From an uncultured virus (IMG/VR IMGVR_UViG_3300047094_001965) (lineage: Duplodnaviria > Heunggongvirae > Uroviricota > Caudoviricetes): DNA of 64,000 nt. The first letter of the stretch is position 1, and every line of letters begins with the position of its first letter. Position numbers and translations under genes: made by a program. The notes beneath the pieces were generated by a model. That model ran no database searches, was not told the origin of the DNA, and worked only from the letters and a program-made list of their open reading frames with translations. Shown here piece by piece: positions 1 to 14,906 of this stretch. The DNA lies in IMG/VR virus record IMGVR_UViG_3300047094_001965; one strand, given 5' to 3'.

Positions 1-34
1 GCGGAGAAGATGATGAACCATTAAACCCACAACC

Positions 35-442
35 ATGAGAGAATTAAAATACCCCTGCACGTGCAGCAGTTCAATAGAGCGGTTAAATTGCAAAGAGAAT
101 TGCGACCATGTAACACAAAAGCAATCGGTGAAGATTAAACCAAAAACAATGATACCATTCGACTTAGAAAAATTTAAGCAAGGCGCAGTAGCTGTGGACA
201 TCTTTGACCGAGATGTTACTTTTCATTATGTTTGTAATGACGAGTACTTAGGTTACAGTTTTATAAAAGATGGTGAAAAGTGGAATGGTTCATTGCCGTT
301 GGAATCGGCTTTAAAGCGCTGGCACATGAAACCCCCCCCAAAGTGGATAGTATTCCGTGAGTTTGACAGCAAGGATGAGGCAAAGGAGTATGCGGAGTTT
401 TTTGGCTTAACAAAGGCTATCTGGAAAATAGAAAAACGATGA
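35..442 (+). CDS. hypothetical phage protein (PFDLE-type N-terminus; alternative start at 149)
   Basis: ORF with AC-rich leader; MIPFDLEKFKQG resembles the N-terminus of ORF 2369-2791. Confidence 0.65.
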   Translation: MRELKYPCTCSSSIERLNCKENCDHVTQKQSVKIKPKTMIPFDLEKFKQGAVAVDIFDRDVTFHYVCNDEYLGYSFIKDGEKWNGSLPLESALKRWHMKPPPKWIVFREFDSKDEAKEYAEFFGLTKAIWKIEKR

Positions 443-642
443 ATCAATTATCGCGCAGATGCGCAACCGGCATTTTTTACACAAAGTCCATTGACGAAAT
501 TCTTAGGGATAAGCCGTTTAATCCCCCATTAAAAAACATACAGATACGAGGACTATCCACCAGACCACTGCTTTTAGAGCCGGGTATTTTTGAAGCCATA
601 ACCAATCAGTTCACCGTAAAACCAGAGCATCCAGCTCAGTAA
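439..642 (+). CDS. hypothetical protein
   Basis: ATGA overlap with the upstream gene; fills the operon. Confidence 0.5.
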   Translation: MNQLSRRCATGIFYTKSIDEILRDKPFNPPLKNIQIRGLSTRPLLLEPGIFEAITNQFTVKPEHPAQ

Positions 643-651
643 ACCACCACC

Positions 652-1431
652 ATGGCACAAAACAGTAAAATACAGTGGACTGACCACACCATTAACTTCT
701 GGACAGGCTGCCACAAGGTATCCCCAGGCTGCAAATACTGCTATATGTACCGGGACAAGGAACGCTATGGCAAAGATCCCAGCGAAGTGATCCGCGTCAA
801 ACCGGCCACCATCAACAAAGTCCTGAAAGAGGCACAGCCCGGAGACAAGGTATTCACCTGTTCATGGTCCGACTTCTTTATCGAGGAAGCCGATCCATGG
901 AGAGAAGAAGCATGGGAGATCATTCGCAACAACCCACAGCTTACCTGGCAGATACTTACCAAAAGGCCGGAGAGGTTAAATCTTTGCCTTCCCAGAGATT
1001 GGGGATTCCATGGCTATAAAAACGTATGGCTGGGCGTATCGGTAGAGTCTCAGGAACAGATACACCGGATTGCGCAATTGGATCTTGTAGATCACTACCT
1101 CGATCACCACAAGAACTTTATATCCTACGAGCCAGCCCTTGGACCGCTTAACCTTATGGCAATTCCTGAGATAAAAGGATTAGGCTACAACGGAATAGAT
1201 TGGCTTATCGTAGGTGGTGAGTCAGGCAACGATAACGGCAAATACCTGTACCGTACCGCAGAACTGGAATGGTTCCACAGTATCCTTATGCAGTGCCGGG
1301 ATCTTGGCATCCCTGTTTTCGTAAAGCAACTCGGTACCGGCCTCGCCAAACAAATGGGCCTGAAAGATCGGCACGGCGGCGATATCTCAGAGTGGCCGGA
1401 ATGGCTGCAGGTAAGAGAATTTCCGAGGTAA
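652..1431 (+). CDS. phage Gp37/Gp68 (DUF5131) family radical-SAM-like protein
   Basis: SKIQWTD, GCHKVSPGCKYCY, ILTKRPER, NVWLGVSVE, WLIVGGESG, FVKQLG motifs. Confidence 0.9.
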   Translation: MAQNSKIQWTDHTINFWTGCHKVSPGCKYCYMYRDKERYGKDPSEVIRVKPATINKVLKEAQPGDKVFTCSWSDFFIEEADPWREEAWEIIRNNPQLTWQILTKRPERLNLCLPRDWGFHGYKNVWLGVSVESQEQIHRIAQLDLVDHYLDHHKNFISYEPALGPLNLMAIPEIKGLGYNGIDWLIVGGESGNDNGKYLYRTAELEWFHSILMQCRDLGIPVFVKQLGTGLAKQMGLKDRHGGDISEWPEWLQVREFPR

Positions 1432-1462
1432 AGACACATTTTGTAACTTCATATCTTCTGCT

Positions 1463-1963
1463 ATGACTGGTTATGCCGATAGTTTAAAAGAACAGTATAA
1501 AAATAGAACGGCTGGGAAAAAGGGAGCTGCTAACTCCCCGCATTATATAACATCTCGTATAATGCGGCTAATCTGGAAATTAGTTAGTACCAGCAGCGAG
1601 GGTGGAACTGGGACTCCCTCAAAGCATAACCACTTAGCAGAGAAGTACAACCCCACCACAGGCACACATTGCTGGTACTGCGACCGTATGTTCTACTTCG
1701 CCAGGTCCGTCCGCTTCCGCGGCATCCTGATCCGTACCAAAGAGCATATACAGCCAAAATCCCGTGGCGGCCACAACTACCTCATCAACCAGATCGCAGC
1801 CTGCCAAGACTGCAATCACCTCAAAGGATCCTTCACCCTAAAAGAATTCATCCACTTCCTCCGAAGTCAGTGCCCCAAGGAAATGCACACCTTCAGAAAA
1901 ACCATGATCACCAGAGCCTATAAGCTCCAAAACAAAAGGAAATTTCTAACCAAACAACCGTAA
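1463..1963 (+). CDS. HNH endonuclease
   Basis: CWYC...TKEHIQPKSRGG...N...ACQDCNHLKG. Confidence 0.8.
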   Translation: MTGYADSLKEQYKNRTAGKKGAANSPHYITSRIMRLIWKLVSTSSEGGTGTPSKHNHLAEKYNPTTGTHCWYCDRMFYFARSVRFRGILIRTKEHIQPKSRGGHNYLINQIAACQDCNHLKGSFTLKEFIHFLRSQCPKEMHTFRKTMITRAYKLQNKRKFLTKQP

Positions 1964-1966
1964 GCA

Positions 1967-2347
1967 ATGTCAAACAACAACGAACTAATCTCCATGCCCG
2001 ACTTCGTGGAGTCCATCAAAACAAAAGTCAAAGAGCAATTCATCAACGCCATCCCCGAGGACAAAATCAACGGCTTTATCACCCAGACCGTAAACGAGTT
2101 CTTGGAAAAGGAGGTGAAGAAGATCGTCACGGACGAATTGAGCCAGATATGCAAGGATTATATAAAAGAACATATGAGAGGATTAGCGGCTGGCAACAGT
2201 ACCCAAAACCCCATAACCAGCCAATGGGAATACACCGTAAACGAAAAGACCAAACAACTTCTCGTAGAGGTAGCGCCCGCAATGATGCAAAGCATCTTCA
2301 GCCAAATGGCCCAGCAGGTTTTCCAATCCATGGCTTACCACAGATAA
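1967..2347 (+). CDS. hypothetical protein
   Basis: co-oriented helical ORF within the operon. Confidence 0.7.
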   Translation: MSNNNELISMPDFVESIKTKVKEQFINAIPEDKINGFITQTVNEFLEKEVKKIVTDELSQICKDYIKEHMRGLAAGNSTQNPITSQWEYTVNEKTKQLLVEVAPAMMQSIFSQMAQQVFQSMAYHR

Positions 2348-2368
2348 CCACCAAACAAACAATCGCAT

Positions 2369-2791
2369 ATGGAACAACAGACCATCCCATTCAACCTGGA
2401 ATACTTCAGGGCAGGGAATAAGGCTTTCGTTAAAAAAGAATATTCAGGGGAACGAACCATTGAATACAAATGGGTGGCCGACACCCAAAGAACAGAATTT
2501 GTAGTTGTCCATAAATCGTTTGAAGAAACCCCGGGTTCGGGATTATGGGAAGAACAGTATTTCGCTATTGAAATTAAGGCGCTTGAAAACCACACCTATA
2601 TGCATCCCCCAGTATTCTACACCGCCGTAAATGCAAAGTTTGGAATACTCCCAAGCAGAGAGATGGCAGAACGGACGAAAGCGGTACTATACTCGAATAG
2701 TCCAAGTGTCATAATCATCGAACTAACCCACGAACAATACCAAGCTATCCAGGAAGAAATGAATAAAGCAACAAAACCAGAACAGATATGA
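2369..2791 (+). CDS. hypothetical protein (PFNLE N-terminus)
   Basis: AC-rich leader; similar start to ORF 35-442. Confidence 0.7.
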   Translation: MEQQTIPFNLEYFRAGNKAFVKKEYSGERTIEYKWVADTQRTEFVVVHKSFEETPGSGLWEEQYFAIEIKALENHTYMHPPVFYTAVNAKFGILPSREMAERTKAVLYSNSPSVIIIELTHEQYQAIQEEMNKATKPEQI

Positions 2792-3144
2792 CAAACATTG
2801 AGTTATTCCACCATTACGCAGGACACGCCTTACAGGCCTTATTGTCCAACTACAGAGAACAGCCCTTATCTATGCTTGACGGAGAAAACGCCGCTAAGGC
2901 TCAGTCACAAAGAAGAAGCCTTATGTACCAAGAGGCGCATGGCCACGCCTTTGGAATGATGAGGATAGCCAGGTATATGGCATGGCCTCGTGAAGATGGA
3001 GAGTTGCCAATTATGGACCGAATTGCGGAATTTATTGCGAAAAACGAAAAAGAAGGCACCTACCCTCTCCAAAACATAGACGCCGGCGGCGAAGTATGGG
3101 AAGTGCTGGTCACATTGAAGAAAAAAAACGATGGAACCGTGTAA
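2788..3144 (+). CDS. hypothetical protein
   Basis: ATGA overlap; followed by a terminator. Confidence 0.65.
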   Translation: MTNIELFHHYAGHALQALLSNYREQPLSMLDGENAAKAQSQRRSLMYQEAHGHAFGMMRIARYMAWPREDGELPIMDRIAEFIAKNEKEGTYPLQNIDAGGEVWEVLVTLKKKNDGTV

Positions 3145-3168
3145 TCCGTTCCCTACCCTATAAATCCC

Positions 3169-3198
3169 AGAAGGCCACCCCATAAAGGTGGCTTTTCT
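3169..3198 (+). terminator. intrinsic terminator
   Basis: AGAAGGCCACC-ccataaa-GGTGGCTTTTCT hairpin after the + operon. Confidence 0.65.
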
Positions 3199-3420
3199 CT
3201 TGGGTACCATGAAAATTGAAAGTTTGAGTTTCAGATTGCATGGTTATATGCAGTTTAGTATAGTTTATTGAAAGTTGCTACAACTATACGCGAACGGGTA
3301 TAACCTAACCCGCATTTTATTACACATTCGCCCCAAAATTGCCCTAATTCTGGGACACTGATACCGGAAAGTGCAGCATATTGCATTTTATCGTACCAAT
3401 AAATGTGTCAAACGGCGTGA

Positions 3421-3532
3421 CAAAATACCCCCCCTGTTTTGTCAAAGGGTTGGCACTATTCCCTATTTGCTGCCGAAAATTTGCTCACCTTATCAATTAG
3501 GCGAGCAAAATACCCCCACCGTTTTGTCAAAG
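3421..3532. repeat. 27-bp direct repeat x2 (25/27 identical, 85-bp period)
   Basis: CAAAATACCCCCCCTGTTTTGTCAAAG (3421-3447) and CAAAATACCCCCACCGTTTTGTCAAAG (3506-3532). Confidence 0.9.
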
Positions 3533-3571
3533 TGGTTATTCGGGAATCCCGAACACCCACTTTTGTATAAT

Positions 3572-3587
3572 AGTTCCACGTGAAACG
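3572..3587. promoter_or_regulatory. parS-like site
   Basis: aGTTCCACGTGAAACg versus consensus TGTTNCACGTGAAACA (14/16). Confidence 0.65.
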
Positions 3588-3644
3588 TGAATTAATTTGG
3601 CTATTGCGGCTAAATATATTAGCTTGGTGGGCTAAATGTGAATT

Positions 3645-4106
3645 ATGGAAGCCCCAAAGAGAACTATCCTGTACAATAAGGCGAGATCCACCGCCAAGGA
3701 TGACGACCTGTTCGATGATCCCAAGGAATCTAAGCCAGCAAAGCCGAAGTCCAAGGCTCCCCTACCGAAGCCAGCCAAAACCCAACCTGCCCGTAAAGCC
3801 GCTACTGAGAAACGGAACTATAAGGTGAAGGTGTCCCCAGTATTTAAAACCCTGGTGGCCACGGCCAACGCCCGACTGCAGCAAATATCCCTATCCCACT
3901 CCGACTTCCAGGATAAGATAGCCGAGGGCTGCCGGTACTGCAACGCCCCAGCTGTCACAGTTTCCCGGATCGATCCCGAATTTGGCTGGGGAAGGGAGAA
4001 TTCGGCCCCTATTTGCCCTATCTGTAACGGGATGAAGGGAGACATGGCTGAAAATGCCTTCCTGAGTCAAATACAGGCCATAGGAAGGGCTAATAAAATT
4101 TTGTGA
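3645..4106 (+). CDS. HNH-like Zn-finger protein with K/P-rich N-terminus
   Basis: CRYC...SRID...GW..EN..PICPICNGMKG; catalytic His not evident. Confidence 0.7.
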   Translation: MEAPKRTILYNKARSTAKDDDLFDDPKESKPAKPKSKAPLPKPAKTQPARKAATEKRNYKVKVSPVFKTLVATANARLQQISLSHSDFQDKIAEGCRYCNAPAVTVSRIDPEFGWGRENSAPICPICNGMKGDMAENAFLSQIQAIGRANKIL

Positions 4107-4540
4107 TATCAACTATCGTCCCTACATTCACACAGCCTAATACGAATTATATGGAAACGTACAAGCATTACACAAGCACAAACAACCCCTCCCGGTCCTC
4201 TATTTTAAGGGGTGTGGGGGTACGAAAGTGCAGTAACACGATAAAATCGAGGGGGCCTGGCGCCGGTGGGAAAGTCGAAATCCTGGCGGGGTGTGGGGTC
4301 AATTTTCCGGTCAAATTTGCCCTGACGCATAATTACCATTATGTTAAGCAGAGCATTAAAACACTGGTTTTGAATGTGTTACGTATTACTGCACCGTATA
4401 ATAACACAAAATCCGTGGAAAATACCACGTTTTCAGGGGGAAATCCAGACCAAACCAGCCACTCAGCGGAAATGCAAAAAAGATCATTCCCCAGCAATAT
4501 TTGCCACGTTGTTGCATATTAACAGTAACAGGACCTTAAT

Positions 4541-5032
4541 ATGTCCAAATTAGCCGCATGGACGAATATATCCTCCAAAACCACATTTTTACGGCATTCC
4601 CTTAAATTAGCTATCTATTGCGGACGACTGGCAGACAGCAACCCCCAGTTAAAACACTTCAGCCTATTATCTGTATTCATCCTTTTTAGCATCTACAAAG
4701 ACAACCTAACCTCATTGCAGGCAATGCACGCAGTTTTGAAACGCTGGCATATGCACACCCATAAACAGACCATTGATAAGCATCTAACTATGTTTATTGC
4801 CGCAGGTTGGGTAACAAGATCAGGCACAAGATCAGAATTTCGCAGGTGGTATAGATACAGTATAACTGCCGAAGGTGTTCAGTTCTTAAAGGACATTGAT
4901 AGGGCTTGCCGTAGTTTAGTCATACCCAAATACAAAGACATCGTTAATACCCGAAGGTTGAGCCTTGCATATTACCACCGCAATAAAGATAAGATCAACG
5001 AAAAGAGACGCAAAAAGCCCCCAACCGGTTAA
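4541..5032 (+). CDS. putative winged-helix DNA-binding protein
   Basis: TIDKHLTMFIAAGWVTR...YRYSITAEG MarR/PadR-like pattern; basic C-terminal tail. Confidence 0.65.
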   Translation: MSKLAAWTNISSKTTFLRHSLKLAIYCGRLADSNPQLKHFSLLSVFILFSIYKDNLTSLQAMHAVLKRWHMHTHKQTIDKHLTMFIAAGWVTRSGTRSEFRRWYRYSITAEGVQFLKDIDRACRSLVIPKYKDIVNTRRLSLAYYHRNKDKINEKRRKKPPTG

Positions 5033-5103
5033 ACCTGGCCACATATACCGCTTATAATTGCTATTTACCGTTCATCATTTTATACGACCGCCTGTCCCAT
5101 AGA

Positions 5104-5136
5104 TTTGCTTTTAGGCGAATGGTTACACTATATTTG
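5104..5136 (+). promoter_or_regulatory. Bacteroidota sigma70 promoter for the early region
   Basis: -33 TTTG (5104-07), 21 nt, -7 TATATTTG (5129-36); -7 box flanked by inverted repeat GTTACAC/GTGTAAC. Confidence 0.8.
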
Positions 5137-5161
5137 TGTAACAGTTCGTTATTAATGTAGA

Positions 5162-5189
5162 ACGGAAGCCCAACCGTATAACATAGGGT
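5162..5189 (+). ncRNA. leader H-type pseudoknot, copy 1
   Basis: ACGG-aa-GCCC-aa-CCGT-ataacata-GGGT, 8 nt before ATG 5198. Confidence 0.8.
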
Positions 5190-5197
5190 AAAACATC

Positions 5198-5419
5198 ATG
5201 CCTACTTTCCAGATCAAATTAAACGAAGTTTTGGACATCGTTAGCGTTCCCGATCATGTTTTAGATTCTATGCGCGACTGGTTAAAAGACTGCGAATTCA
5301 GAGAGGGTTTTGATAGTCACATAGATGTTGAGGACGCAAGAGATATTGTTATAATTGCCGCAGTCAACCGCCATTATGATGGAGGATACAAGGCTTTTTT
5401 AAATGATTACTACTTATAA
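5198..5419 (+). CDS. small acidic early protein
   Basis: first ORF after the promoter and pseudoknot. Confidence 0.75.
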   Translation: MPTFQIKLNEVLDIVSVPDHVLDSMRDWLKDCEFREGFDSHIDVEDARDIVIIAAVNRHYDGGYKAFLNDYYL

Positions 5420-5429
5420 CCCCCCAGCC

Positions 5430-5633
5430 ATGCACAACTTTAATGTACTGATAACCGACACAGACGGACAATCGTCCACTAATGATGCCCTTAACCTTAT
5501 CCGTATCAATACCGCTATAGATGTTGATGGATTGACAAGGGAGGACATACACGCTATTTTGAGCCTTAAACACGGAGAAGAATATAATTTGCCCGTTCAC
5601 TTTGGGTTCCTTATTATCAAACGCATTGATTAA
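5430..5633 (+). CDS. small early protein
   Basis: ATG at 5430 after an AC-rich leader. Confidence 0.65.
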   Translation: MHNFNVLITDTDGQSSTNDALNLIRINTAIDVDGLTREDIHAILSLKHGEEYNLPVHFGFLIIKRID

Positions 5634-5645
5634 TTAACCATAACC

Positions 5646-5674
5646 CCAGCCGCCCCGCTGGCTAAATATAGGGT
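5646..5674 (+). ncRNA. leader pseudoknot, copy 2
   Basis: CCAG-cc-GCCC-cg-CTGG-ctaaatata-GGGT, 8 nt before ATG 5683. Confidence 0.8.
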
Positions 5675-5682
5675 AATACCGT

Positions 5683-5886
5683 ATGCAACACATTACAGCA
5701 CTTTCGCTTGTTTTAAACGTTCTATTGATCATCCATGCCATTGGCAACTATTGGGAACGCACCCGCGCCCACCGTCTTAAATTAGCTAACGATGCTAAAA
5801 GGAAGCAAGCCACAAGGCAGCACGTTAATGCTTGTATTCATGTTTCCGCGTCCGCTATGAGAAGATATAACACGTCTAACAATTAA
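5683..5886 (+). CDS. small protein with N-terminal hydrophobic helix
   Basis: ITALSLVLNVLLIIHAIG. Confidence 0.65.
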   Translation: MQHITALSLVLNVLLIIHAIGNYWERTRAHRLKLANDAKRKQATRQHVNACIHVSASAMRRYNTSNN

Positions 5887-5892
5887 TTATAC

Positions 5893-5923
5893 GGCGGGGA
5901 ACGGGTTTACCTTAGTACCCGCC
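5893..5923 (+). ncRNA. leader hairpin with bulged-G (loop E/sarcin-ricin-type) module
   Basis: GGCGGG-GAA-c-GGG-ttta-CCT-t-AGTA-CCCGCC, 14 nt before ATG 5938. Confidence 0.55.
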
Positions 5924-5937
5924 ATAAATCTACAATT

Positions 5938-6750
5938 ATGACACTTAACGAAATAATGACAGCAATACAGGCAGGACATAGGGTATATTGGAGCAATGGA
6001 GCATACGAAGTAAAGGCCATAGGGGACAATACGAACCCGCATAATTACAATATTGTTTGCTCTATTAATGGTTCCGTTATTGGGCTAACATGGACAGATG
6101 GTAAGACCTTGAACGGCAAAGAAGGTGATTTTTTCATTGTGGGAAAGGCCGAAAGGGTTAAATCCTATTTTTCGTTAGATGATGCTTTTTTGCCTGTTAT
6201 GGGATACCACGACCCTAAACAACGCTGGAACGGGTTCGCCTGCCCTGCGTTCCCTATGGAATCCGTAGAACTTATTTTGATGTACTTAGGGCAGCCCGAT
6301 ACAGACGAGGACGGATCATATTGGGAACTTGTTAACGGGGAATTATTTGAAGTTTATTATGAAGCAGGCAAAGAGCAAGAGAGGACCAAAGAGGAACCTA
6401 TTATTGTTGATGGTATCCCCTGTTATAATGTTGGGGCATTCAATTGGGTTTGGAGCGAAGATAAAAGGGTAATGGAGTCAAACACCTTGCCGGATGTATT
6501 ACATGAATACCATCATCATACGCGCATGGCTAATGCCGAAGGTAGGGACTGGCAAAATGTAGGCATACGCTGGGAGGATAACGCCCACGATGATGGCAGG
6601 GGTGAGGATGTTTACCATGTAGATATTGAGGAGACAGGGGAAAACGAGGATAGCGCACTTATTGAAACTATCCAGTATTACGACCATGCGATATTCTTAG
6701 CCGACATGAGATTTTTAAACCAATGGGAAGCCATTGTATCGGAAGCATAG
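5938..6750 (+). CDS. acidic multi-domain early protein
   Basis: 270-aa ORF; RWNGFACPAF and YNVGAFNWVW segments typical of phage early proteins. Confidence 0.8.
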   Translation: MTLNEIMTAIQAGHRVYWSNGAYEVKAIGDNTNPHNYNIVCSINGSVIGLTWTDGKTLNGKEGDFFIVGKAERVKSYFSLDDAFLPVMGYHDPKQRWNGFACPAFPMESVELILMYLGQPDTDEDGSYWELVNGELFEVYYEAGKEQERTKEEPIIVDGIPCYNVGAFNWVWSEDKRVMESNTLPDVLHEYHHHTRMANAEGRDWQNVGIRWEDNAHDDGRGEDVYHVDIEETGENEDSALIETIQYYDHAIFLADMRFLNQWEAIVSEA

Positions 6751-6803
6751 GTTAACTGAAGAAGGTTGAATACCTGAAATGGGGAGCAATCCCCATATTA
6801 ACC
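6750..6803 (+). ncRNA. type I hammerhead ribozyme
   Basis: stem I GGTTAA/TTAACC; core CTGAAGA; stem II AGGT-tgaat-ACCT; GAAA; stem III TGGGGA-gcaa-TCCCCA; cleavage triplet AUA (cut after 6797). Confidence 0.9.
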
Positions 6804-6807
6804 AATA

Positions 6808-6835
6808 ACCCACGCCCGAGGGTATAACAAAGGGT
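6808..6835 (+). ncRNA. leader pseudoknot, copy 3
   Basis: ACCC-ac-GCCC-ga-GGGT-ataacaaa-GGGT, 8 nt before ATG 6844. Confidence 0.8.
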
Positions 6836-6843
6836 AAAGCCGT

Positions 6844-7350
6844 ATGATAGAAATCAAAGATTATTCAACAGACGTTTTACAATGGGCTAATCAGGTCAAC
6901 GAGATCGTGCCCGTATATAAGACCCGCCCATTCAGGACAGTAAAAGACCTGCCAAAGATAGAAAGAGAGACGGACGCCGTCCGCATGGCATACGCCCATT
7001 TTTCTAACCTACTCATTGGGGAAGTAGAGTATTTTGGTGTATTCTTTTTGAACAAAGGGCAAAAGGTGATCGGGTTCCAGTTAATCAGCCAAGGCGGCAT
7101 ATCGGGAACCGTAGCAGACCCCCGCGTAATAATGAAAGCCGCGCTATTAGTTGGGGCGACTGGTTTAATACTGGTTCATAACCACCCCAGCGGGAATCTA
7201 AAGCCAAGCCACGCAGATAGCGAGATCACAATAAAAATAAGGGAGGGTTGCAGGTTCTTTGATATACAATTAGTTGACCACATTATTTTACCAGGCACAG
7301 ACACAGACGGCACACAATTTTATTCTTTCGCCGAAAACGGACTTATATAA
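6844..7350 (+). CDS. radC: RadC-like JAB domain protein
   Basis: E...FLN...ISQGGISGTVADPR...LVHNHPSGNLKPSHAD...LVDHII. Confidence 0.95.
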   Translation: MIEIKDYSTDVLQWANQVNEIVPVYKTRPFRTVKDLPKIERETDAVRMAYAHFSNLLIGEVEYFGVFFLNKGQKVIGFQLISQGGISGTVADPRVIMKAALLVGATGLILVHNHPSGNLKPSHADSEITIKIREGCRFFDIQLVDHIILPGTDTDGTQFYSFAENGLI

Positions 7351-7360
7351 CCATACAAAA

Positions 7361-7388
7361 CCGGATGCCCGACCGTCACAAATAGGGT
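7361..7388 (+). ncRNA. leader pseudoknot, copy 4
   Basis: cCGG-at-GCCC-ga-CCGt-cacaaata-GGGT, 8 nt before ATG 7397. Confidence 0.8.
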
Positions 7389-7396
7389 AATACATC

Positions 7397-8737
7397 ATGA
7401 GCAAAGCAATTCGCACAACGTACAGAAATCTTTCAGGTTGGGACTGGGTAGTAAGAACCGACAAGAACAGCAGAGGCCAAATCGAATGTAGGGCAGACGC
7501 GCAGAAGATCAGTAAACCGGATGAAAACGGCCTTATTATTTCTGAATGGGGCATGGATAACCCCGCGCTATTATTAGCCCGTTCAGAGGGAGTAATGAGA
7601 GCCACAGAAAAAACACTATTGGAATACCACAGGTTGGGCAAGGCCAAATTTGAAGCCATGAGGGACGCGGGAGAATTGCCCGTAAACGAGACAGCCACAC
7701 CCGAGGAAAACACTTTGCCTATGTATTGTAAATTAATCGCTTTTGGATATGGCAATAGGCAAATACCGTGCGCAATAGTTGGAACCCATACAAACGCATA
7801 CCACGGAAGGACAGAGTACAAAGTTTTGGTAATGGATGGTGAAAATGTTCTCATCCATAACGTGGAAACCATTAAACCCCTATCTAAAAAATTTGGCGTA
7901 GGTACCTATTATTTAGACAGCCGCGAGACATATACAGAAGCGGAAATTTTGCCGATCGTAGTAAAAGCAGAGCAATTAGCCATTATAAGGGAACGCCAAA
8001 AACAAGAAGCGGACCAAAAAGAGGCAGAAATAAAAGCCCTGGGTGCGCAGCTTTATGCGGAGAAGGTGCCAAGTTGGGCTAAGGCCGTAATCATTGCCGA
8101 ACTGATGATCGATAATAGCGACCCACACAGCGACTATTTCCACGCTTCAGGGGACAGGGACAAAACCTTTATTTTGGCGTTCTCTACCTACACCCAGAAC
8201 AATGAACAGGAACTAAGATCCGCAGCGCTGAATTTTGAAGGGACCGCAGACATGGCTAACCAGGACACCGGCGAATTGTACAAAGGGCATAGTGCATACG
8301 ATTACCGTTTACAAACATCGTGGAGAAGTGGCTACCACGTGCGCAAACTCAAAATAGAGGGTTCATACGATAAGGGTATTATTGCCAGGGCGTTAGCACT
8401 GGGAAATAACTTTGCCCCCATTAACGAGCCGCCACAAGGAACCACAGTACCAGCAGCCGCAAACGTTCGCATTATCCTGAATGAGAAGCAAGGAGGCGTT
8501 GAAATCCACTTCACAGGAAAGCCGGAGAAAAGTATTTTGTCAGAACTGAAGGCCAACGGGTGGAGATGGGCGAAATTCAATAAATGCTGGTATAAACGAG
8601 ATACACCAGCCGCCAGGCAATTTGCAAGCCAGTACGGCACAATAGCAGGAAGCCAGGGCGATCAGGATCCTGCAGCTGGGATGATCCAGGCCAATGAAGA
8701 TGCCTATTTCGATAATTGGGCAGCTAATAACCTTTAA
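7397..8737 (+). CDS. multi-domain early protein, polyvalent-protein-associated type
   Basis: C-terminal GVEIHFTGKP...LKANGWRW...CWY domain seen in DUF3560/LPD-type proteins; SDPHSDYF motif. Confidence 0.75.
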   Translation: MSKAIRTTYRNLSGWDWVVRTDKNSRGQIECRADAQKISKPDENGLIISEWGMDNPALLLARSEGVMRATEKTLLEYHRLGKAKFEAMRDAGELPVNETATPEENTLPMYCKLIAFGYGNRQIPCAIVGTHTNAYHGRTEYKVLVMDGENVLIHNVETIKPLSKKFGVGTYYLDSRETYTEAEILPIVVKAEQLAIIRERQKQEADQKEAEIKALGAQLYAEKVPSWAKAVIIAELMIDNSDPHSDYFHASGDRDKTFILAFSTYTQNNEQELRSAALNFEGTADMANQDTGELYKGHSAYDYRLQTSWRSGYHVRKLKIEGSYDKGIIARALALGNNFAPINEPPQGTTVPAAANVRIILNEKQGGVEIHFTGKPEKSILSELKANGWRWAKFNKCWYKRDTPAARQFASQYGTIAGSQGDQDPAAGMIQANEDAYFDNWAANNL

Positions 8738-8747
8738 CCATTAACCC

Positions 8748-8777
8748 AGGGAGCCGGATATAATTGTCCGGTTCCCT
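8748..8777 (+). other. strong intergenic hairpin (processing, stability or terminator element)
   Basis: AGGGAGCCGGATA-taat-TGTCCGGTTCCCT. Confidence 0.6.
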
Positions 8778-8793
8778 TCAAACTCCCCACAGT

Positions 8794-8979
8794 ATGAGCA
8801 AGCAAATTAAACCAGGGCAGACATGGTACCATAAAACCGCACACTTTGCCGTAAAGGTTGAAGCTGCCAATAAAAGAGAAGTATTGATTATGGATAAAGG
8901 ACTAAGCCACGCAGCTACAAAGGGCTGGCAGTTTATCGACCGTAAAGAATTTAAGAAGTATTACGAGCCGAACCAGTAA
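8794..8979 (+). CDS. small hypothetical protein
   Basis: MSKQIKPGQTWYHK...FKKYYEP, SH3-like pattern. Confidence 0.7.
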   Translation: MSKQIKPGQTWYHKTAHFAVKVEAANKREVLIMDKGLSHAATKGWQFIDRKEFKKYYEPNQ

Positions 8980-9041
8980 CACCCATTTAGCCACCTAAGC
9001 CAATTTAACTTAAATTAGTCAACTCAACAAAATTACAATTT

Positions 9042-9344
9042 ATGAAATGTCAAATCCAGGGCACAGCCCCCACAGTTTACCAGTTATCCAGTATTTCGCG
9101 TTTCGGAATACCCGTACAGAAAATGCCAGGCGGGGCCTTCCATTGCTGCAAAAGCTTTGAAACAAAGCGCGAAGCCATAGAACACATGTACAGCGCGGCA
9201 GATCGCTATTTTGAAGATGCCAAAGAACTCATGGAAGCCAGGCACGACATAAAGCACACCGGACTTTTAAAGATAGACGCAGCGCATTGTATTATCATAA
9301 CCAACCCGGACGACTTTCAGCCAGAAACGGTAAACAATTATTGA
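9042..9344 (+). CDS. hypothetical early protein
   Basis: co-oriented ORF with A-rich leader. Confidence 0.7.
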   Translation: MKCQIQGTAPTVYQLSSISRFGIPVQKMPGGAFHCCKSFETKREAIEHMYSAADRYFEDAKELMEARHDIKHTGLLKIDAAHCIIITNPDDFQPETVNNY

Positions 9345-9383
9345 TAATAGTTATATCTTTTTGTACAATTATTAACTAAATTT

Positions 9384-9415
9384 ATTGCCTATGTAATAAT
9401 ATTTACCTATTTTTA
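9384..9415 (+). promoter_or_regulatory. probable variant Bacteroidota promoter
   Basis: ATTG, 20 nt, TATTTTTA in an AT-rich gap just before pseudoknot copy 5. Confidence 0.45.
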
Positions 9416-9424
9416 TACAATCAA

Positions 9425-9448
9425 AAGGATGCCCAACCGTAAAAGGGT
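9425..9448 (+). ncRNA. leader pseudoknot, copy 5 (degenerate)
   Basis: AaGG-at-GCCC-aa-CCgT-aaaa-GGGT, 10 nt before ATG 9459. Confidence 0.7.
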
Positions 9449-9458
9449 AATACCAGTT

Positions 9459-10100
9459 ATGAACACATACAGAAAGTACATCCCCAATGTTTTTTTGGCC
9501 GAGTGCACAGAAAAGCACGAGAAAGGCGAGATCATTACAATGTCCACCAAATACGGACAGGAACACGAAGCCGAAGTACATAACCTCATTTTTGAGAAAA
9601 ACGGTATGTTTTACTATTCCGTTACCAGGGCAGACGGGACCAATACCCAGACATGGGCCCAGAAACGAGCGGAGAAGCTACAGGGATACGCAGGGAACGC
9701 GGAAAAGAGAGCCGACCAATACTATACAGCCAGCAACAAGGACAGCGAATTTTTAAGGCTGGGAGAGCCTATAAAGGTAGGCCACCACAGCGAACGCCGC
9801 CACCGTAAAATTGTAGAACAGGCCTGGAACAATACAGGTAAGATGGTAGGCGAAATGGAAAAGGCAGCAGAATACCAGAGCCGCGCGGCATACTGGGAAA
9901 GCAGGGCTAAGGATATCAATTTGTCCATGCCCGACAGTTTGGAGTATTACCAACACAAAATGGAAGAAGCTACCAGGTACCATGCAAGGATGAAAGCCGG
10001 AGAGATCCCGCAGGAGCATAGCTATTCCCTTACATATGCAAGGAAAGCAGTGAAGGAGCTGGAAGAAAAAGTAAAGTACGCTAAAAAGTTGTGGTCATGA
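9459..10100 (+). CDS. DUF3560-like protein
   Basis: LGEPIKVGHHSERRHRK signature; start reassigned to 9459 by leader motif spacing. Confidence 0.85.
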   Translation: MNTYRKYIPNVFLAECTEKHEKGEIITMSTKYGQEHEAEVHNLIFEKNGMFYYSVTRADGTNTQTWAQKRAEKLQGYAGNAEKRADQYYTASNKDSEFLRLGEPIKVGHHSERRHRKIVEQAWNNTGKMVGEMEKAAEYQSRAAYWESRAKDINLSMPDSLEYYQHKMEEATRYHARMKAGEIPQEHSYSLTYARKAVKELEEKVKYAKKLWS

Positions 10101-10510
10101 GCAAAACATTCAGAGTAACCAGGCAGGTTATTTACAGTCAAGAACTGGAAATCCAAGCTGAAACCGAAGATCAGGCCATTGAATTAGCAAAAACAACGTC
10201 TTACTCCACAGAGGATAAAACCTTTTTGGACACAGACTATTATGAGGCCGAAGAAATAGAAAAGGAGCCAGAAACCACCCCAGCCCCCAGCGATACCGTA
10301 AGATGCACAAATTGCAATTTTATAGGTGCGGAGAGTGAACTTGCATTTATTACGGCAGACGAGCAAGAGGATAAAGAACTAATCCTAAACTATGAAATAA
10401 CGGGCAAAGGGGTTACACATTGTAACCAGCAACCACAGGGCGCTAATGTTGTCCACTTCAACGGCTGCCCCAATTGTTTAACCGATGCCTATTTAATGGA
10501 CATTAAATAA
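10097..10510 (+). CDS. hypothetical protein with Zn ribbon
   Basis: IQAETEDQAIELA domain plus CTNC/CPNC. Confidence 0.75.
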   Translation: MSKTFRVTRQVIYSQELEIQAETEDQAIELAKTTSYSTEDKTFLDTDYYEAEEIEKEPETTPAPSDTVRCTNCNFIGAESELAFITADEQEDKELILNYEITGKGVTHCNQQPQGANVVHFNGCPNCLTDAYLMDIK

Positions 10511-10517
10511 CCCACCC

Positions 10518-10718
10518 ATGAGCTGCCAAAAAGTATATACCCTATTCGTATCGGAACACGGCCTCCCCACCATCGTAAGCCAATATAGCCTGGAATACCC
10601 TGATTTTATACAATGTGGAGCCTATAAGGTAGAAATGGAAGGCACATATAGGGAATGCCAAGATAGACACGATGAGATCCTTGAAACATTTATTCACGAC
10701 ACTATAAACGCTGAATGA
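10518..10718 (+). CDS. hypothetical protein
   Basis: operon ORF. Confidence 0.65.
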   Translation: MSCQKVYTLFVSEHGLPTIVSQYSLEYPDFIQCGAYKVEMEGTYRECQDRHDEILETFIHDTINAE

Positions 10719-10975
10719 CCATGGCTAAAACATTCTACCGCAGCAGCCTGCCGGAAGTGATCCGGTACAATAAAGGGGTGTATCTAAAAAATTCAGAATT
10801 AACCGAGGAAATGAGAAAACACCCCACCCTATTAGGGTTAAGGCCTGGATCACGTCCTTATGTGATCGTTTACGTCCTCAATCGTAGGTTGAGAGGGAAA
10901 ATAGACTTCCACGGGAAACCATACGAGCCAACCATGCACATATACAGCAAACAAAAGGAGGCCGCCAATGGGTAG
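10715..10975 (+). CDS. hypothetical protein
   Basis: ATGA overlap. Confidence 0.65.
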   Translation: MTMAKTFYRSSLPEVIRYNKGVYLKNSELTEEMRKHPTLLGLRPGSRPYVIVYVLNRRLRGKIDFHGKPYEPTMHIYSKQKEAANG

Positions 10976-11204
10976 ATACACCAAAGCAATGCATGAACAG
11001 CACCTCAACCAGTATTACAGCACAAAATACCAGGCTGGCCCCCTTAGTGAGATATGGAAGGAATTAGGGCGTAATACAACCCCTAAGGACCTTAGAACAG
11101 CATGGAGGCGAAACAGGTTAGGCCGGCTGATCAGGAGAACAAACCCGCAAGGGTTCAACAAATCTTACTTAACCCAAGATTTAAGGGAGGTAACCAATGG
11201 ATAA
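10968..11204 (+). CDS. hypothetical protein, paralog of 11197-11421
   Basis: MGRYTKAMHEQHLN versus MDKYTKKMHEEHLN. Confidence 0.75.
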   Translation: MGRYTKAMHEQHLNQYYSTKYQAGPLSEIWKELGRNTTPKDLRTAWRRNRLGRLIRRTNPQGFNKSYLTQDLREVTNG

Positions 11205-11421
11205 GTACACAAAAAAAATGCACGAAGAACATTTGAATAACTGGTATGCCGATTATTACGATGGACGCTTTGATAAACTGTACGAGGACTTTTCTTATTG
11301 CATGGGAAGAAGGGGATTATGGAAAGCATACCAAAACAGAGAAATAGGTACAGTTCTGAGGAATTACGACTATGAAACCTTCAACAAAACATATCAATCA
11401 AAATTGAAGGCACATGGATAG
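11197..11421 (+). CDS. hypothetical protein, paralog of 10968-11204
   Basis: shared N-terminus and FNK(S/T)Y motif. Confidence 0.75.
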   Translation: MDKYTKKMHEEHLNNWYADYYDGRFDKLYEDFSYCMGRRGLWKAYQNREIGTVLRNYDYETFNKTYQSKLKAHG

Positions 11422-11632
11422 AATACTCGTTAAGCCCCTGAACTCTAAAACCGCGTTCCATTACTTTGAGCCCGGCCACGAACACAACAACATGAAACGT
11501 GTGGACCGGATACGCAAGGAACTGGAAATGGCTAAAAGGCAGAAGAACGCTATCATCTACCTGCAGAGAGGACGCAAGGCAGTAGAGATAGCCAGGAATG
11601 TATCGTTAACTCAAAAAACTATGTTCAAATAA
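11414..11632 (+). CDS. hypothetical basic protein
   Basis: 8-nt overlap with the upstream gene. Confidence 0.65.
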   Translation: MDRILVKPLNSKTAFHYFEPGHEHNNMKRVDRIRKELEMAKRQKNAIIYLQRGRKAVEIARNVSLTQKTMFK

Positions 11633-11682
11633 CCCGTTCTTATATCCAACGTCCTTTTGGCACCTTTGATACCACTTACCCA

Positions 11683-11708
11683 GGGGAGTAGAAATACTCC
11701 CCACTTTT
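11683..11708 (+). terminator. GAAA-capped hairpin, possible terminator
   Basis: GGGGAGTA-gaaa-TACTCCCC-acTTTT. Confidence 0.55.
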
Positions 11709-11823
11709 GGCCCAAAAAAAATACCCCCGGCAACCACAGCCGAGGGCAAACCCTGAGAAATGAAAAACCACGTATGAAACACAAAGTTACATTTTATAAC
11801 CACTGAATAAAACAGTTTTATTT

Positions 11824-12564
11824 ATGACTACCGAGATCCTGAAAGAATGCACAGTAAAAGGGAATGCCGTAATGTTACCCGCCAGGCAATTAGACCGGAA
11901 AATCTACCAAGACGTTGCCAGTAAGCTGGAAGGCATTGGCGGCAAATGGAACAGAAAAGCCGGAGGTTTTATGTTTGACGAAAATCCTGCTGAACTTTTG
12001 GCAATAATCCAGACCGGCCAAACTTTGGACCTAAAAAAGGAATTCCAGTTTTTCCCCACCCCTCCCGATCTGGCATTGTGGGCAATGGGTATGCTGGCCT
12101 GCCAGGTAAGCGGTGAAGATACTATTCTGGAACCGAGCGCGGGACGTGGAGCCCTGATCAAGGCGTTCCGGCAGGTCCACAGTGTACATAATCCCATAGA
12201 TGCATACGAACTTATGCCGATCAATCAAAAGTTCCTGGAACAGATCCCCAATGTAAATGTGATCGGGGATGACTTCACCCAAGCTACAGGGATCGAGGGC
12301 AAATACGACCTGATTCTGGCCAATCCCCCGTTTACCGGAGGCCAAGACGTGGAGCACATTGAGAAAATGTATGCTGCCCTGAAAGAAGGTGGCACCATCC
12401 TCACCTTCTGTTCTACATCGTGGAGACATAACAGCCAGAAGCGATACGAGCGCTTTAGGGACCTTATCGACCAATGGAACGCAGAAACATACTTAGTTCC
12501 CAAAGGTGCCTTTAAATCGTCCGGGACCATGGTAGAAACCACTTTATTCATCATCGAAAAATAA
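11824..12564 (+). CDS. N6-adenine DNA methyltransferase (gamma-type)
   Basis: QFFPTP, ILEPSAGRG (motif I), ANPPF (motif IV). Confidence 0.9.
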   Translation: MTTEILKECTVKGNAVMLPARQLDRKIYQDVASKLEGIGGKWNRKAGGFMFDENPAELLAIIQTGQTLDLKKEFQFFPTPPDLALWAMGMLACQVSGEDTILEPSAGRGALIKAFRQVHSVHNPIDAYELMPINQKFLEQIPNVNVIGDDFTQATGIEGKYDLILANPPFTGGQDVEHIEKMYAALKEGGTILTFCSTSWRHNSQKRYERFRDLIDQWNAETYLVPKGAFKSSGTMVETTLFIIEK

Positions 12565-12572
12565 ACCAACAC

Positions 12573-13001
12573 ATGAAAAAGACAGCCCTGTTAATTATCG
12601 CCGTCATGGCCTGCCTACTTTCGTTAGGCCAACAAAAAGAAACCAGCCTCAAAGCCAAGGAGAAGCGAACCCTTCGCTATGTATCGGAGACGCTATTCCC
12701 CGGAGACTGGGAGAAATCGACCGCACGGATCTCGTTTACCGGCAGCAAAGTTGTGATAACAGAGGACGGCAGATATACCAGCTATGCCGTAGGGGAAGAA
12801 TTTAAACGGGATCCGGATGAAGATGGAGAGATTGAAACCACCGCTTGGTATATCCTGGATGATAAGGATAAAATAGGCCTGTTTTCCATCATGAGGAAAG
12901 AAAGTACCGGCGATATCTGGGTTACCATCCTATTCGGTAGCAAGGGGATCACATACAGTTTGACCAGTAAAAAGGTAGAGGAACTTAAAAATAGGCCATG
13001 A
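12573..13001 (+). CDS. secreted/periplasmic hypothetical protein
   Basis: Sec signal MKKTALLIIAVMACLLSLG-Q. Confidence 0.75.
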   Translation: MKKTALLIIAVMACLLSLGQQKETSLKAKEKRTLRYVSETLFPGDWEKSTARISFTGSKVVITEDGRYTSYAVGEEFKRDPDEDGEIETTAWYILDDKDKIGLFSIMRKESTGDIWVTILFGSKGITYSLTSKKVEELKNRP

Positions 13002-14896: not shown

Positions 14897-14906
14897 AGAC
14901 TAACCA

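What the first reader, a model, noticed from the sequence alone, without database searches (positions are those of the whole stretch)
6750..6843. Intact hammerhead ribozyme in tandem with the pseudoknot leader of radC
Seen: all core nucleotides (CUGAnGA, GAAA, UH) and three stems, with a GCAA tetraloop on stem III. It starts at the stop codon of 5938-6750 and is predicted to cut after A6797, 10 nt before pseudoknot copy 3. Established: hammerheads occur in phage intergenic regions and leave a 5'-OH product. Inference: self-processing of the early polycistron releases a radC-containing mRNA whose new 5' end begins with the pseudoknot, a two-part RNA device.
Basis: partly seen in the sequence, partly recalled or inferred. 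Interest (0 to 1): 0.8.

Follow-up and report, generated by a model that had tools for sequence, protein, structure and literature searches.

The report
Phage hammerhead ribozyme before radC
The flagged stretch is a genuine copy of a common self-cutting RNA (a type I hammerhead ribozyme) that many uncultured phages carry between genes, so it is an ordinary element, and its position next to this phage's own folded gene leader looks incidental rather than a joint device.

Summary
Window 6750-6803 (+) has the full hammerhead core (CUGAAGA, GAAA, U-A), three stems of 6, 4 and 7 bp, and a predicted cut after A6797. No hammerhead motif of any topology appeared in 0 of 100 shuffles at three of four parameter settings.

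It belongs to a large type I hammerhead family in phage contigs with the same stem I (GGUUAA/UUAACC), the same 4-bp stem II with a 5-nt loop, and covarying stems. A covariance model built without the window scores it 67.5 bits, E 1.3e-15. Rfam misses it, and also leaves other family members below threshold. This scan met the family before on other DNA.

Family copies sit just after a stop codon, usually 12-20 nt before the next start codon. It most likely cuts the polycistronic message ahead of radC.

Two caveats:
- It alone has A-U instead of G-C at pair 10.1-11.1: 0 of 113 family copies, and 0 hits in a targeted scan.
- Two lake metagenomes carry an uncompensated stem I change, G6751C.

The "ribozyme plus pseudoknot device" is not supported. 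Only 1 of 4 pseudoknot leaders has a hammerhead, and 0 of 107 family hammerheads has such a leader. It is a new member of a known kind.

The parts
6750..6803 (+). Type I hammerhead ribozyme (whole motif, stem I open)
   Evidence: Read directly. The MFE fold is the three-way junction. It is the only descriptor hit in the window. Family model R1, built without the window, scores 6747-6807 at 67.5 bits, E 1.3e-15.
6750..6755 (+). Stem I, 5' strand GGUUAA; G6750 is also the last base of the TAG stop of ORF 5938-6750
   Evidence: The same stem I occurs in 18 of 61 matches of a pattern that left stem I free. G6751 is C in contigs of two other runs, with no compensating change.
6756..6762 (+). Core C3-A9: CUGAAGA
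   Evidence: These columns are invariant in the family alignments.
6763..6775 (+). Stem II (4 bp, AGGU/ACCU) with loop UGAAU; pair 10.1-11.1 is A6763-U6775
   Evidence: 4-bp stem II in 106 of 113 family copies, and loop UGAAU in 10 of the 87 copies with a 13-nt stem II segment. Pair 10.1-11.1 is G-C in 111, G-U in 2 and A-U in 0 of 113. A targeted scan for A-U copies found 0.
6776..6778 (+). Core G12 A13 A14
   Evidence: invariant in the family.
6779..6796 (+). Stem III (7 bp starting with A15.1-U16.1) with GCAA tetraloop
   Evidence: Pair probability is 0.87-1.0 in every context folded. Stem III covaries in the family, with changes on both sides in 6 of 7 pairs.
6797..6798 (+). Predicted cleavage site: after H17 = A6797, before U6798
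   Evidence: Position follows from the hammerhead consensus (established knowledge). H17 is A in 28 and C in 85 of 113 family copies. Cleavage was not tested.
6798..6803 (+). Stem I, 3' strand UUAACC; it would be the 5'-OH end of the downstream product
   Evidence: It is followed by AA, as in 95 of 113 family copies.
6808..6835 (+). Leader motif copy 3 (putative H-type pseudoknot): ACCC-AC-GCCC-GA-GGGU-AUAACAAA-GGGU, 8 nt before the radC ATG
   Evidence: It is an independent module and not part of the ribozyme.
5162..5189 (+). Leader motif copy 1, before ATG 5198 (hairpin ACGG/CCGU)
5646..5674 (+). Leader motif copy 2, before ATG 5683 (hairpin CCAGC/GCUGG)
7360..7388 (+). Leader motif copy 4, before ATG 7397 (hairpin CGG/CCG)
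5938..6750 (+). Upstream gene (270 aa, unknown function) whose message would keep the ribozyme body as its 3' end
   Evidence: No Pfam family. PHROGs families of unknown function only.
6844..7350 (+). radC-like gene (168 aa, JAB domain)
   Evidence: Pfam RadC PF04002, E 1.4e-32; phrog_10276, E 6.9e-29

Best explanation
Window 6750-6803 encodes a functional or nearly functional type I hammerhead ribozyme. It belongs to a widespread family of phage intercistronic hammerheads with stem I GGUUAA/UUAACC, a 4-bp stem II and a 5-nt loop.

It is transcribed as part of the same-strand gene row. It folds as soon as it leaves the polymerase and cuts its own backbone between A6797 and U6798. The upstream message (ORF 5938-6750) keeps the compact ribozyme body and a 2',3'-cyclic phosphate at its 3' end. 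The downstream message, radC and probably the genes after it, starts with a 5'-OH at UUAACCAAUA. This uncouples the stability and translation of the two halves of the polycistron.

The pseudoknot-like leader that follows is this phage's own leader cassette, used before four genes. It sits next to the ribozyme only because the ribozyme was placed between a stop codon and an existing leader.

Shown: the motif, family membership, covariation in the family, and the position between stop and start codon. Inferred: co-transcription, cleavage, the chemistry of the ends, and the consequences for expression.
For: Motif and chance:
- The core and three stems are complete, and the MFE fold is the junction.
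- 0 of 100 shuffles give any hammerhead motif at three of four settings.

Family:
- A pattern fixing only the core and GGGG/CCCC in stem III found 61 matches in viral contigs. 38 of them also have the unspecified stems I (4 bp or more) and II (3 bp or more). 18 carry exactly GGUUAA/UUAACC and 8 carry GGUUUA/UAAACC.
124 have the unspecified stems II and III, and 113 are distinct.
- On 53 family rows without the window, 97.7% of cells pair, 15 of 17 pairs change on both sides, and the covariation score is 0.678 against 0.147 in shuffles (0 of 500 reach it) and at most 0.12 with slid partners.
- Model R1, built from those rows, scores the window copy 67.5 bits, E 1.3e-15, while the next best match in the window is 12.1 bits. 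That lies within the range of independent copies in genome contigs, 21.7-70 bits.

Position:
- Of 107 family copies with 300 nt or more on both sides, 79 lie 12-20 nt before the start of an ORF of 50 codons or more.
- 43 lie 0-7 nt after the stop of an ORF of 60 codons or more. In 12 of these the stop overlaps the first G, as here.
- The spacer here is 93 nt, against 46-51 nt for the neighbouring spacers. The difference is close to the 54-nt ribozyme.
- No promoter-like or terminator-like site lies in the spacer.

Other points:
- The A-U at 10.1-11.1 is a change on both sides that keeps the pair.
- Stem I probability in context is like the family's: 0.30 against a median of 0.26 with 50-nt flanks.
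- Literature: clustered hammerheads flank genes in prophages and cleave roughly 2-kb polycistronic constructs in vitro (PMC3088659, passages).
Against: - No experiment and no RNA data exist. None of the 24 runs listed is on record as RNA.
- Pair 10.1-11.1 is A-U, while 111 of 113 family copies have G-C, 2 have G-U and none has A-U. A targeted scan of all viral contigs for A-U copies found 0. G10.1-C11.1 is called highly conserved in canonical hammerheads (PMC4209133, passage). From recall only, G10.1 helps bind a divalent ion and changes there lower the rate.
- In contigs of two other lake-water runs (X7, X9) the only difference across 6554-6916 is G6751C, which breaks stem I pair 2 with no compensating change. 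With it, stem I probability is 0.0 and the hammerhead fold costs -10.4 against an MFE of -15.5 kcal/mol. That pair is a standard pair in 53 of 53 family rows. Selection on this copy may therefore be relaxed.
- Rfam gives no match even at E up to 10.
- No syntenic relative of this phage region was found, so conservation at this exact locus could not be tested.
- The rows for the family alignments were chosen partly by pairing filters, which inflates the share of paired cells. 41 of the 53 model rows were found with the window's own stem I sequence.
Confidence: 0.6

Rival explanations
1. It is a hammerhead by descent, but in this phage lineage it is attenuated or decaying. The A10.1-U11.1 pair slows catalysis, and part of the natural population has already lost stem I. 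It contributes little or nothing to expression and persists as a harmless spacer with a stable stem III hairpin.
For: - A-U at 10.1-11.1 occurs in 0 of 113 family copies and in 0 hits of a targeted scan.
- The uncompensated G6751C is seen in contigs of 2 of the 2 other runs that cover the site. It abolishes the predicted stem I.
- In isolation the stem I probability is 0.63, against a family median of 0.89.
Against: - The change at 10.1-11.1 hit both partners and kept the pair, which suggests continued selection for the helix.
- All 11 invariant core bases, the A15.1-U16.1 pair and the three stems are intact in the window copy.
- It scores as high as typical family members.
- The G6751C contigs have low depth, 2.9 and 3.8.
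Confidence: 0.25
2. One reading: the hammerhead and the pseudoknot form one composite device. Cleavage exists in order to give the pseudoknot leader a defined 5' end 10 nt upstream, which is needed for control of radC translation.
For: - The geometry is as stated: the cut lies 10 nt before the motif, and the two folds do not overlap.
- Leader copy 1 may also lie near a transcript 5' end, since a Bacteroidota-type promoter pattern sits at 5104-5136. That pattern is not enriched in the window, with 4 matches against 2.4 expected.
Against: - Only 1 of the 4 leader copies has a hammerhead.
- 0 of 107 family hammerheads has a GCCC..GGGU leader within 80 nt downstream, and 79 of 107 are only 12-20 nt from the start codon.
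- No relative with both modules was found.
Confidence: 0.1
3. It is a chance match to the hammerhead consensus, or a structured spacer of another kind such as a protective hairpin, with no relation to ribozymes.
For: - Rfam models give no match.
- Simple motifs do occur by chance in very large scans, as PMC3088659 notes (Discussion passage).
Against: - 0 of 100 shuffles at three of four settings.
- It shares features that no search pattern specified at once with the others: stem I sequence, the A before and AA after stem I, stem II length, and loop UGAAU.
- 67.5 bits with a model that excludes it.
- Rfam RF00163 also leaves known-good family members below its threshold. It hit only 3 of 20 family loci, at 23.6-30.9 bits against a gathering score of 34.
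Confidence: 0.03

Closest known systems
Type I hammerhead ribozymes in phage and prophage intergenic regions (Perreault et al. 2011, PMC3088659; Rfam RF00163 Hammerhead_1, clan CL00010)
   Same: - The same catalytic core, three-helix junction and open stem I.
- An intercistronic position within same-strand phage gene rows.
- Several copies per contig are common in the family, with up to 3 in one locus.
- Perreault et al. describe hammerheads flanking single genes in prophages, and one 13 nt before a start codon (passages).
   Different: - This copy has A10.1-U11.1.
- The window holds a single copy.
- It lies 40 nt, rather than 12-20 nt, before the start codon, because the phage's own leader motif sits in between.
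- Rfam's type I model does not reach its threshold on this sub-family.
The GGUUAA-stem-I sub-family of type I hammerheads in uncultured phage contigs
   Same: - Stem I GGUUAA/UUAACC, with A before it and AA after it.
- A 4-bp stem II with a 5-nt U-N-A-A-U type loop.
- H17 is A or C.
- It starts at or just after a stop codon.
   Different: - The identity of pair 10.1-11.1.
- N7 is A, as in only 9 of 113 copies.
- A longer downstream leader.
preQ1-I riboswitch and other compact H-type leader pseudoknots (compared only for the neighbouring leader motif)
   Same: The order of elements is alike: a short hairpin, a C-rich loop segment, an A-rich 8-9 nt tail, then a G-rich segment just before the start codon that could pair with the loop. 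The resemblance to preQ1-I is recalled, not tested by alignment.
   Different: - No Rfam match at E up to 10.
- The linker bases are not conserved among the four copies.
- The second helix never varies, so pairing is unproven.
- No convincing relatives were found outside this phage.

Membership tests
Hammerhead ribozyme (type I) | Core strand C3 U4 G5 A6 N7 G8 A9 | tested here: met
   CUGAAGA at 6756-6762
Hammerhead ribozyme (type I) | Core strand G12 A13 A14, then the A15.1-U16.1 pair, then H17 (not G) at the cleavage site | tested here: met
   GAA at 6776-6778, A6779-U6796, and A6797
Hammerhead ribozyme (type I) | Three helices around the core, with stems II and III closed by loops and stem I open | tested here: met
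   Stems of 6, 4 and 7 bp. The MFE fold equals this junction, and the descriptor finds it.
Hammerhead ribozyme (type I) | Pair 10.1-11.1 present, typically G-C | tested here: inconclusive
   The pair is present but is A-U. Family: G-C 111, G-U 2, A-U 0 of 113, and 0 A-U copies in a targeted scan. Perreault et al. required only a pair at N10.1-N11.1 (Methods passage).
Hammerhead ribozyme (type I) | Tertiary contact between stem I and loop II that gives fast cleavage at physiological Mg2+ | not testable with these tools
   No internal loop or pseudoknot partner was seen by eye in the flanks. The copy does share the family's conserved stem I sequence and loop II type, which may carry such a contact. 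This is inference.
Hammerhead ribozyme (type I) | Reaches the curated score of Rfam RF00163 | tested here: not met
   No match at gathering or at E up to 10. The same model hit only 3 of 20 family loci, all below its gathering score of 34, so this says more about the model than about the copy.
Hammerhead ribozyme (type I) | Site-specific self-cleavage giving 2',3'-cyclic phosphate and 5'-OH ends | not testable with these tools
   No RNA run holds the stretch, and there is no assay.
GGUUAA-stem-I phage hammerhead sub-family | Significant score with a covariance model built from other members only | tested here: met
   67.5 bits, E 1.3e-15, full length 1-61. Independent copies in genome contigs score 21.7-70 bits.
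GGUUAA-stem-I phage hammerhead sub-family | Intercistronic position: directly after a stop codon and 12-20 nt before the next start codon | tested here: inconclusive
   The stop codon overlaps the first G, as in 12 of 107 copies. The distance to the start codon is 40 nt, against 12-20 nt in 79 of 107.
   1 of 4 leaders has a hammerhead, and 0 of 107 family hammerheads has such a leader.
preQ1-I riboswitch (considered for the leader motif) | Match to Rfam RF00522 or any riboswitch model | tested here: not met
   cmscan of 5000-7500 at E up to 10 gave only two unrelated weak hits.

The most novel reading that the evidence does not exclude
The four-copy leader motif (hairpin, GCCC, A-rich tail, AGGGUAA, 8 nt, AUG) may be a new translational operator or ligand-sensing pseudoknot of a phage that infects a Bacteroidota-like host without Shine-Dalgarno sites. 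At radC the hammerhead would then give it a free 5'-OH end 10 nt upstream, so that radC translation is set by the leader alone and is uncoupled from the upstream cistron. In that reading the unique A10.1-U11.1 pair tunes cleavage to a partial level.
Probability: 0.1. Interest if true: 0.6.

Novelty: new member of a known kind. Interest (0 to 1): 0.3.

Why it matters
Hammerheads between phage genes have been known since 2011, and their biological role is still unsettled according to the 2019 review PMC6765202 (passage). This copy adds little on its own.

Three points have modest value:
- The sub-family it belongs to is large and sits at a very regular place, just after a stop codon and 12-20 nt before the next start. 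Rfam's type I model leaves it below threshold, so such copies are under-annotated.
- This copy is a natural experiment. It has a doubly substituted 10.1-11.1 pair that no other family member has, and a natural stem I variant exists in the same phage population. Both can be compared in a simple cleavage assay.
- The neighbouring four-copy leader motif is an uncatalogued, phage-specific element that deserves its own test.

Tried and rejected
Searches for relatives of this locus:
- blastn of 5600-7600 against 50,697 phage records gave no match.
- The own assembly is not held. The nearest record, G001 (a 19.5-kb fragment), has no match to 5600-7600 or to 1-20000.
- Viral-contig searches with the 270-aa protein, RadC and the 446-aa protein gave 1, 1 and 2 loci, all distant or partial matches.
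- RadC relatives in metagenome contigs gave 12 loci at 55% identity or less. In the top locus, L224, the matching ORF is 233 aa, longer than the 168-aa phage gene. The upstream DNA of L224 and L225 was read, and no hammerhead or leader motif was seen.
- Neither my descriptor nor model R1 found a hammerhead or the leader motif in these 16 loci.
- A first scan for copies with this stem II (CTGAAGAAGG..CCTGAAA) gave 116 stretches, of which 5 matches in the held loci passed only lax stem rules and none resembles this copy.

RNA evidence:
- No RNA holder is listed among the 24 runs.
- Run X6 gave nothing when laid, and X4 does not cover the ribozyme.

Leader motif outside the window:
- 103 stretches match the pattern in viral contigs, each with one match. 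Only 13 of the 103 have a hairpin of 4 bp or more around GCCC, which is the chance level, so no family was found.
- A relaxed AGGGTAA-N6-ATG search adds nothing in the window: 8 matches against 5.3 expected, and only the same 4 are exact.

Other checks:
- The sigma-70 and terminator scan shows nothing inside 6750-6843.
- The Bacteroidota-type promoter pattern is not enriched, with 4 matches against 2.4 expected.
- Alignment A3 had 12 rows cut short through my coordinate slip. It was replaced by A4.
- Papers PMC1986816 and PMC2271363 are not held, and a search for 'hammerhead' with '10.1-11.1' found nothing. The effect of changing G10.1-C11.1 therefore rests on recall and on one passage in PMC4209133.
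- The supplements of Perreault et al. (Figures S5-S7, on tertiary contacts and core variants) were not opened and may bear on the A-U pair.
Full report
**1. What is in the sequence**

The 93-nt spacer between ORF 5938-6750 (270 aa, unknown function) and the radC-like gene 6844-7350 was read directly. radC matches Pfam RadC at E 1.4e-32.

- Bases 6750-6803 on the + strand spell a complete hammerhead with stem I open, that is, type I.
- Stem I is GGUUAA (6750-6755) with UUAACC (6798-6803).
- The core strand is CUGAAGA (6756-6762).
- Stem II is AGGU/ACCU with loop UGAAU (6763-6775).
- GAA is 6776-6778.
- Stem III has 7 bp, beginning with A6779-U6796, and is capped by GCAA.
- H17 is A6797.
- G6750 is also the last base of the TAG stop codon.
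- The cut would fall between 6797 and 6798. That is 10 nt before the leader motif 6808-6835, which ends 8 nt before the radC ATG.

**2. Is it more than chance?**

- The 54-mer's minimum-free-energy fold is exactly the three-way junction: -17.1 kcal/mol, z -3.0, with 1 of 200 shuffles folding as well. The fold survives in the MFE of a 131-nt context.
- My descriptor for type I, II and III hammerheads finds this as the only hit on both strands of the window.
- Among 100 dinucleotide-preserving shuffles of the window, 0 had any hit at settings (6,4,7,12), (5,4,4,12) and (4,3,3,30). 4 had one at the laxest setting.
- Rfam gives nothing, neither at gathering scores over the window nor at E up to 10 over 6650-6950 and 5000-7500.

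**3. Relatives of the locus**

No syntenic relative was found.

- There is no blastn match among phage records.
- The own assembly is not held, and the nearest record lacks this part.
- The flanking proteins have only distant or partial matches in viral contigs.
- The 12 RadC loci from metagenomes are at most 55% identical. In the top locus, L224, the matching ORF is 233 aa, longer than the 168-aa phage gene.
- None of these 16 loci holds a hammerhead or the leader motif.

**4. Relatives of the ribozyme**

Two pattern scans, each leaving part of the motif free:
- A pattern fixing only the core and a GGGG/CCCC stem III, with stems I and II free, found 59 stretches and 61 matches in viral contigs.
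  - 38 of the 61 also have a stem I of 4 bp or more and a stem II of 3 bp or more.
  - 18 carry exactly the window's stem I, GGUUAA/UUAACC.
  - 8 carry GGUUUA/UAAACC, and one (L262) has the compensated GAUUAA/UUAAUC.
Many contigs hold 2-4 copies.
  - Of 152 matches in the DNA held, 124 have both free stems, and 113 are distinct.

Features of the 113 distinct copies:
- Stem II is 4 bp in 106 of them.
- The commonest loops are UAAAU, UUAAU, UGAAU (the window's) and UCAAU.
- AA follows stem I in 95.
- H17 is C in 85 and A in 28.

Covariation and the family model:
- On an alignment of 53 family rows without the window, 97.7% of cells pair and 15 of 17 pairs change on both sides. The covariation score is 0.678, against 0.147 in shuffles (0 of 500 reach it) and at most 0.12 with slid partners.
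- The rows were picked with pairing filters, so the share of paired cells is inflated. The independent argument is that 38 of 61 and 124 of 152 pattern matches have the stems that the patterns left free.
- A covariance model from these 53 rows scores the window copy 67.5 bits, E 1.3e-15, over its full length. The next best match in the window is 12.1 bits.
- Independent copies in bacterial genome bins score 21.7-70 bits. 5 of the 12 stretches are in Bacteroidota bins.
- 41 of the 53 model rows were found with the window's own stem I sequence, so part of the score follows from the way they were found.

Rfam and earlier notes:
- On 20 family loci, Rfam's type I model gave only three hits, all below its gathering score: 30.9, 27.7 and 23.6 bits against 34. 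Its silence on the window copy therefore reflects the model.
- This scan met the same family on other DNA before (note e1-3410136). It has noted many phage hammerheads.

**5. Where the family sits**

Of 107 distinct copies with 300 nt or more on both sides:
- 79 lie 12-20 nt before the start codon of an ORF of 50 codons or more.
- 43 lie 0-7 nt after the stop of an ORF of 60 codons or more.
- In 12 of these the stop overlaps the first G, as in the window.

In the window:
- The neighbouring spacers are 49, 51 and 46 nt, and this one is 93 nt. The ribozyme looks like a 54-nt module placed between a stop codon and an existing leader.
- No promoter-like or terminator-like site lies in the spacer.
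- Leaders are A-rich, and only 6 of 60 ORFs have a Shine-Dalgarno-like 4-mer. Together with the genome bins, this points to a Bacteroidota-like host. This is inference.

**6. Most likely mechanism**

By analogy with tested prophage hammerheads, which cleave roughly 2-kb polycistronic constructs (PMC3088659, passages), the RNA folds during transcription and cuts after A6797.

- The upstream message keeps the ribozyme body and a cyclic phosphate at its 3' end.
- The radC message begins with a 5'-OH at UUAACCAAUA.
- Different stabilities or translation of the two halves are the usual proposal, and they are explicitly still unproven (PMC6765202, passage).

Shown here: the motif, family membership and position. 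Inferred: co-transcription, cleavage and its effects.

**7. Evidence against full activity**

- The window copy has A-U at pair 10.1-11.1. Among 113 family copies this pair is G-C in 111, G-U in 2 and A-U in none. A targeted scan of all viral contigs for A-U copies returned 0. The pair is described as highly conserved (PMC4209133, passage). That G10.1 helps hold a metal ion is recalled, not checked.
- Both partners changed, so the helix is kept. This speaks for continued selection on structure.
- Contigs of two other lake-water runs that cover the ribozyme differ from the window at one base only within 6554-6916. That base is G6751C, in stem I pair 2, with C6802 unchanged.
  - With it, the predicted stem I probability falls to 0.0, and the hammerhead fold (-10.4) loses to another fold (-15.5 kcal/mol).
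  - That pair is a standard pair in all 53 family rows.
  - The depth of those contigs is low, 2.9 and 3.8.
- Stem I is weak in long contexts, with probability 0.30 with 50-nt flanks and 0.05 with 100-nt flanks. The family behaves the same way, with medians of 0.26 and 0.10.
- In isolation the window copy is weaker than the family, at 0.63 against 0.89.

**8. The pseudoknot and the 'device'**

The leader motif is real.
- The pattern GCCC..AWAGGGUAA-N6-AUG occurs 4 times in the window, and none of 100 shuffles gave any match. The copies precede ATG 5198, 5683, 6844 and 7397.
- The hairpin around GCCC differs in sequence but stays complementary: ACGG/CCGU, CCAGC/GCUGG, ACCC/GGGU and CGG/CCG.
- The proposed second helix, CCC with GGG, never varies, so the pseudoknot itself is unproven.
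- Among 103 one-off pattern matches in viral contigs, only 13 have such a hairpin. No outside family was found, and Rfam has no match.

For the composite reading the test is co-occurrence, and it fails.
- 1 of the 4 leaders has a ribozyme.
- 0 of 107 family ribozymes has such a leader.

The two are independent modules that happen to adjoin here.

**9. Verdict**

This is a new member of a known kind of element, with two unusual, testable details: the A-U pair at 10.1-11.1 and the natural stem I variant. An uncatalogued phage-specific leader motif lies next to it.

My estimates:
- It is a hammerhead by descent: about 0.97.
- It cleaves detectably in vitro: about 0.75.
- The best explanation as stated, an active copy that processes the message with the leader independent: 0.6.

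Noticed in passing
window 5162-5189, 5646-5674, 6808-6835, 7360-7388 (+): A four-copy leader motif sits 8 nt before four start codons. It consists of a short covarying hairpin enclosing GCCC, an A-rich 8-9 nt tail, then an invariant AGGGUAA. It is a possible H-type pseudoknot. Rfam has no match and no convincing relatives were found in viral contigs.
   Followed up: partly
window 5890-5925 (+), before ATG 5938: The gene just upstream of the ribozyme has a different leader: a GGCGGG...CCCGCC hairpin enclosing about 19 nt, instead of the four-copy motif.
   Followed up: no
window 17954-18422 (-): A cluster of five tRNA genes, with Rfam tRNA scores of 49-63 bits.
   Followed up: no
window 21-50, 135-164, 13432-13461 and many other gene starts: A recurrent junction and leader of the type TAAACC(A/C)ACAACC-ATG. 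Many leaders contain AACCA, which resembles the UUAACCAA that the hammerhead's 3' product would start with. Only 6 of 60 ORFs have a Shine-Dalgarno-like 4-mer.
   Followed up: partly
window 5104-5136 (+): A Bacteroidota-type promoter pattern (TTTG, 21 nt, TAtaTTTG) lies in the 165-nt gap before leader copy 1, overlapping a 7-bp hairpin at 5122-5142. The pattern is not enriched in the window, with 4 matches against 2.4 expected.
   Followed up: partly
L269 882-951 (-), L262 268-352 (-), L273 244-315 (-), L253 79-134 (+): Further hammerhead-like matches lie a few hundred bases from the family hammerheads on the same phage contigs. They hit Rfam RAGATH-1-hammerhead at 28.5-33.8 bits, below its gathering score of 56.3. 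This fits with clusters of different hammerhead forms.
   Followed up: no
L243, L244, L250, L253 (TTAACCAAACATGG) and L248, L287 (TTAACCAACATGG): In some family copies an ATG follows stem I after only 3-4 nt, so cleavage would leave a message with a leader of about 10 nt. I did not check whether these ATGs open the downstream gene.
   Followed up: no
window 9429-10100 (+): This ORF matches phrog_17519 at E 2e-95. It has 43-57% identical relatives in Porphyromonas and Pasteurella phages and in a human-gut phage record. Its function is unknown.
   Followed up: no
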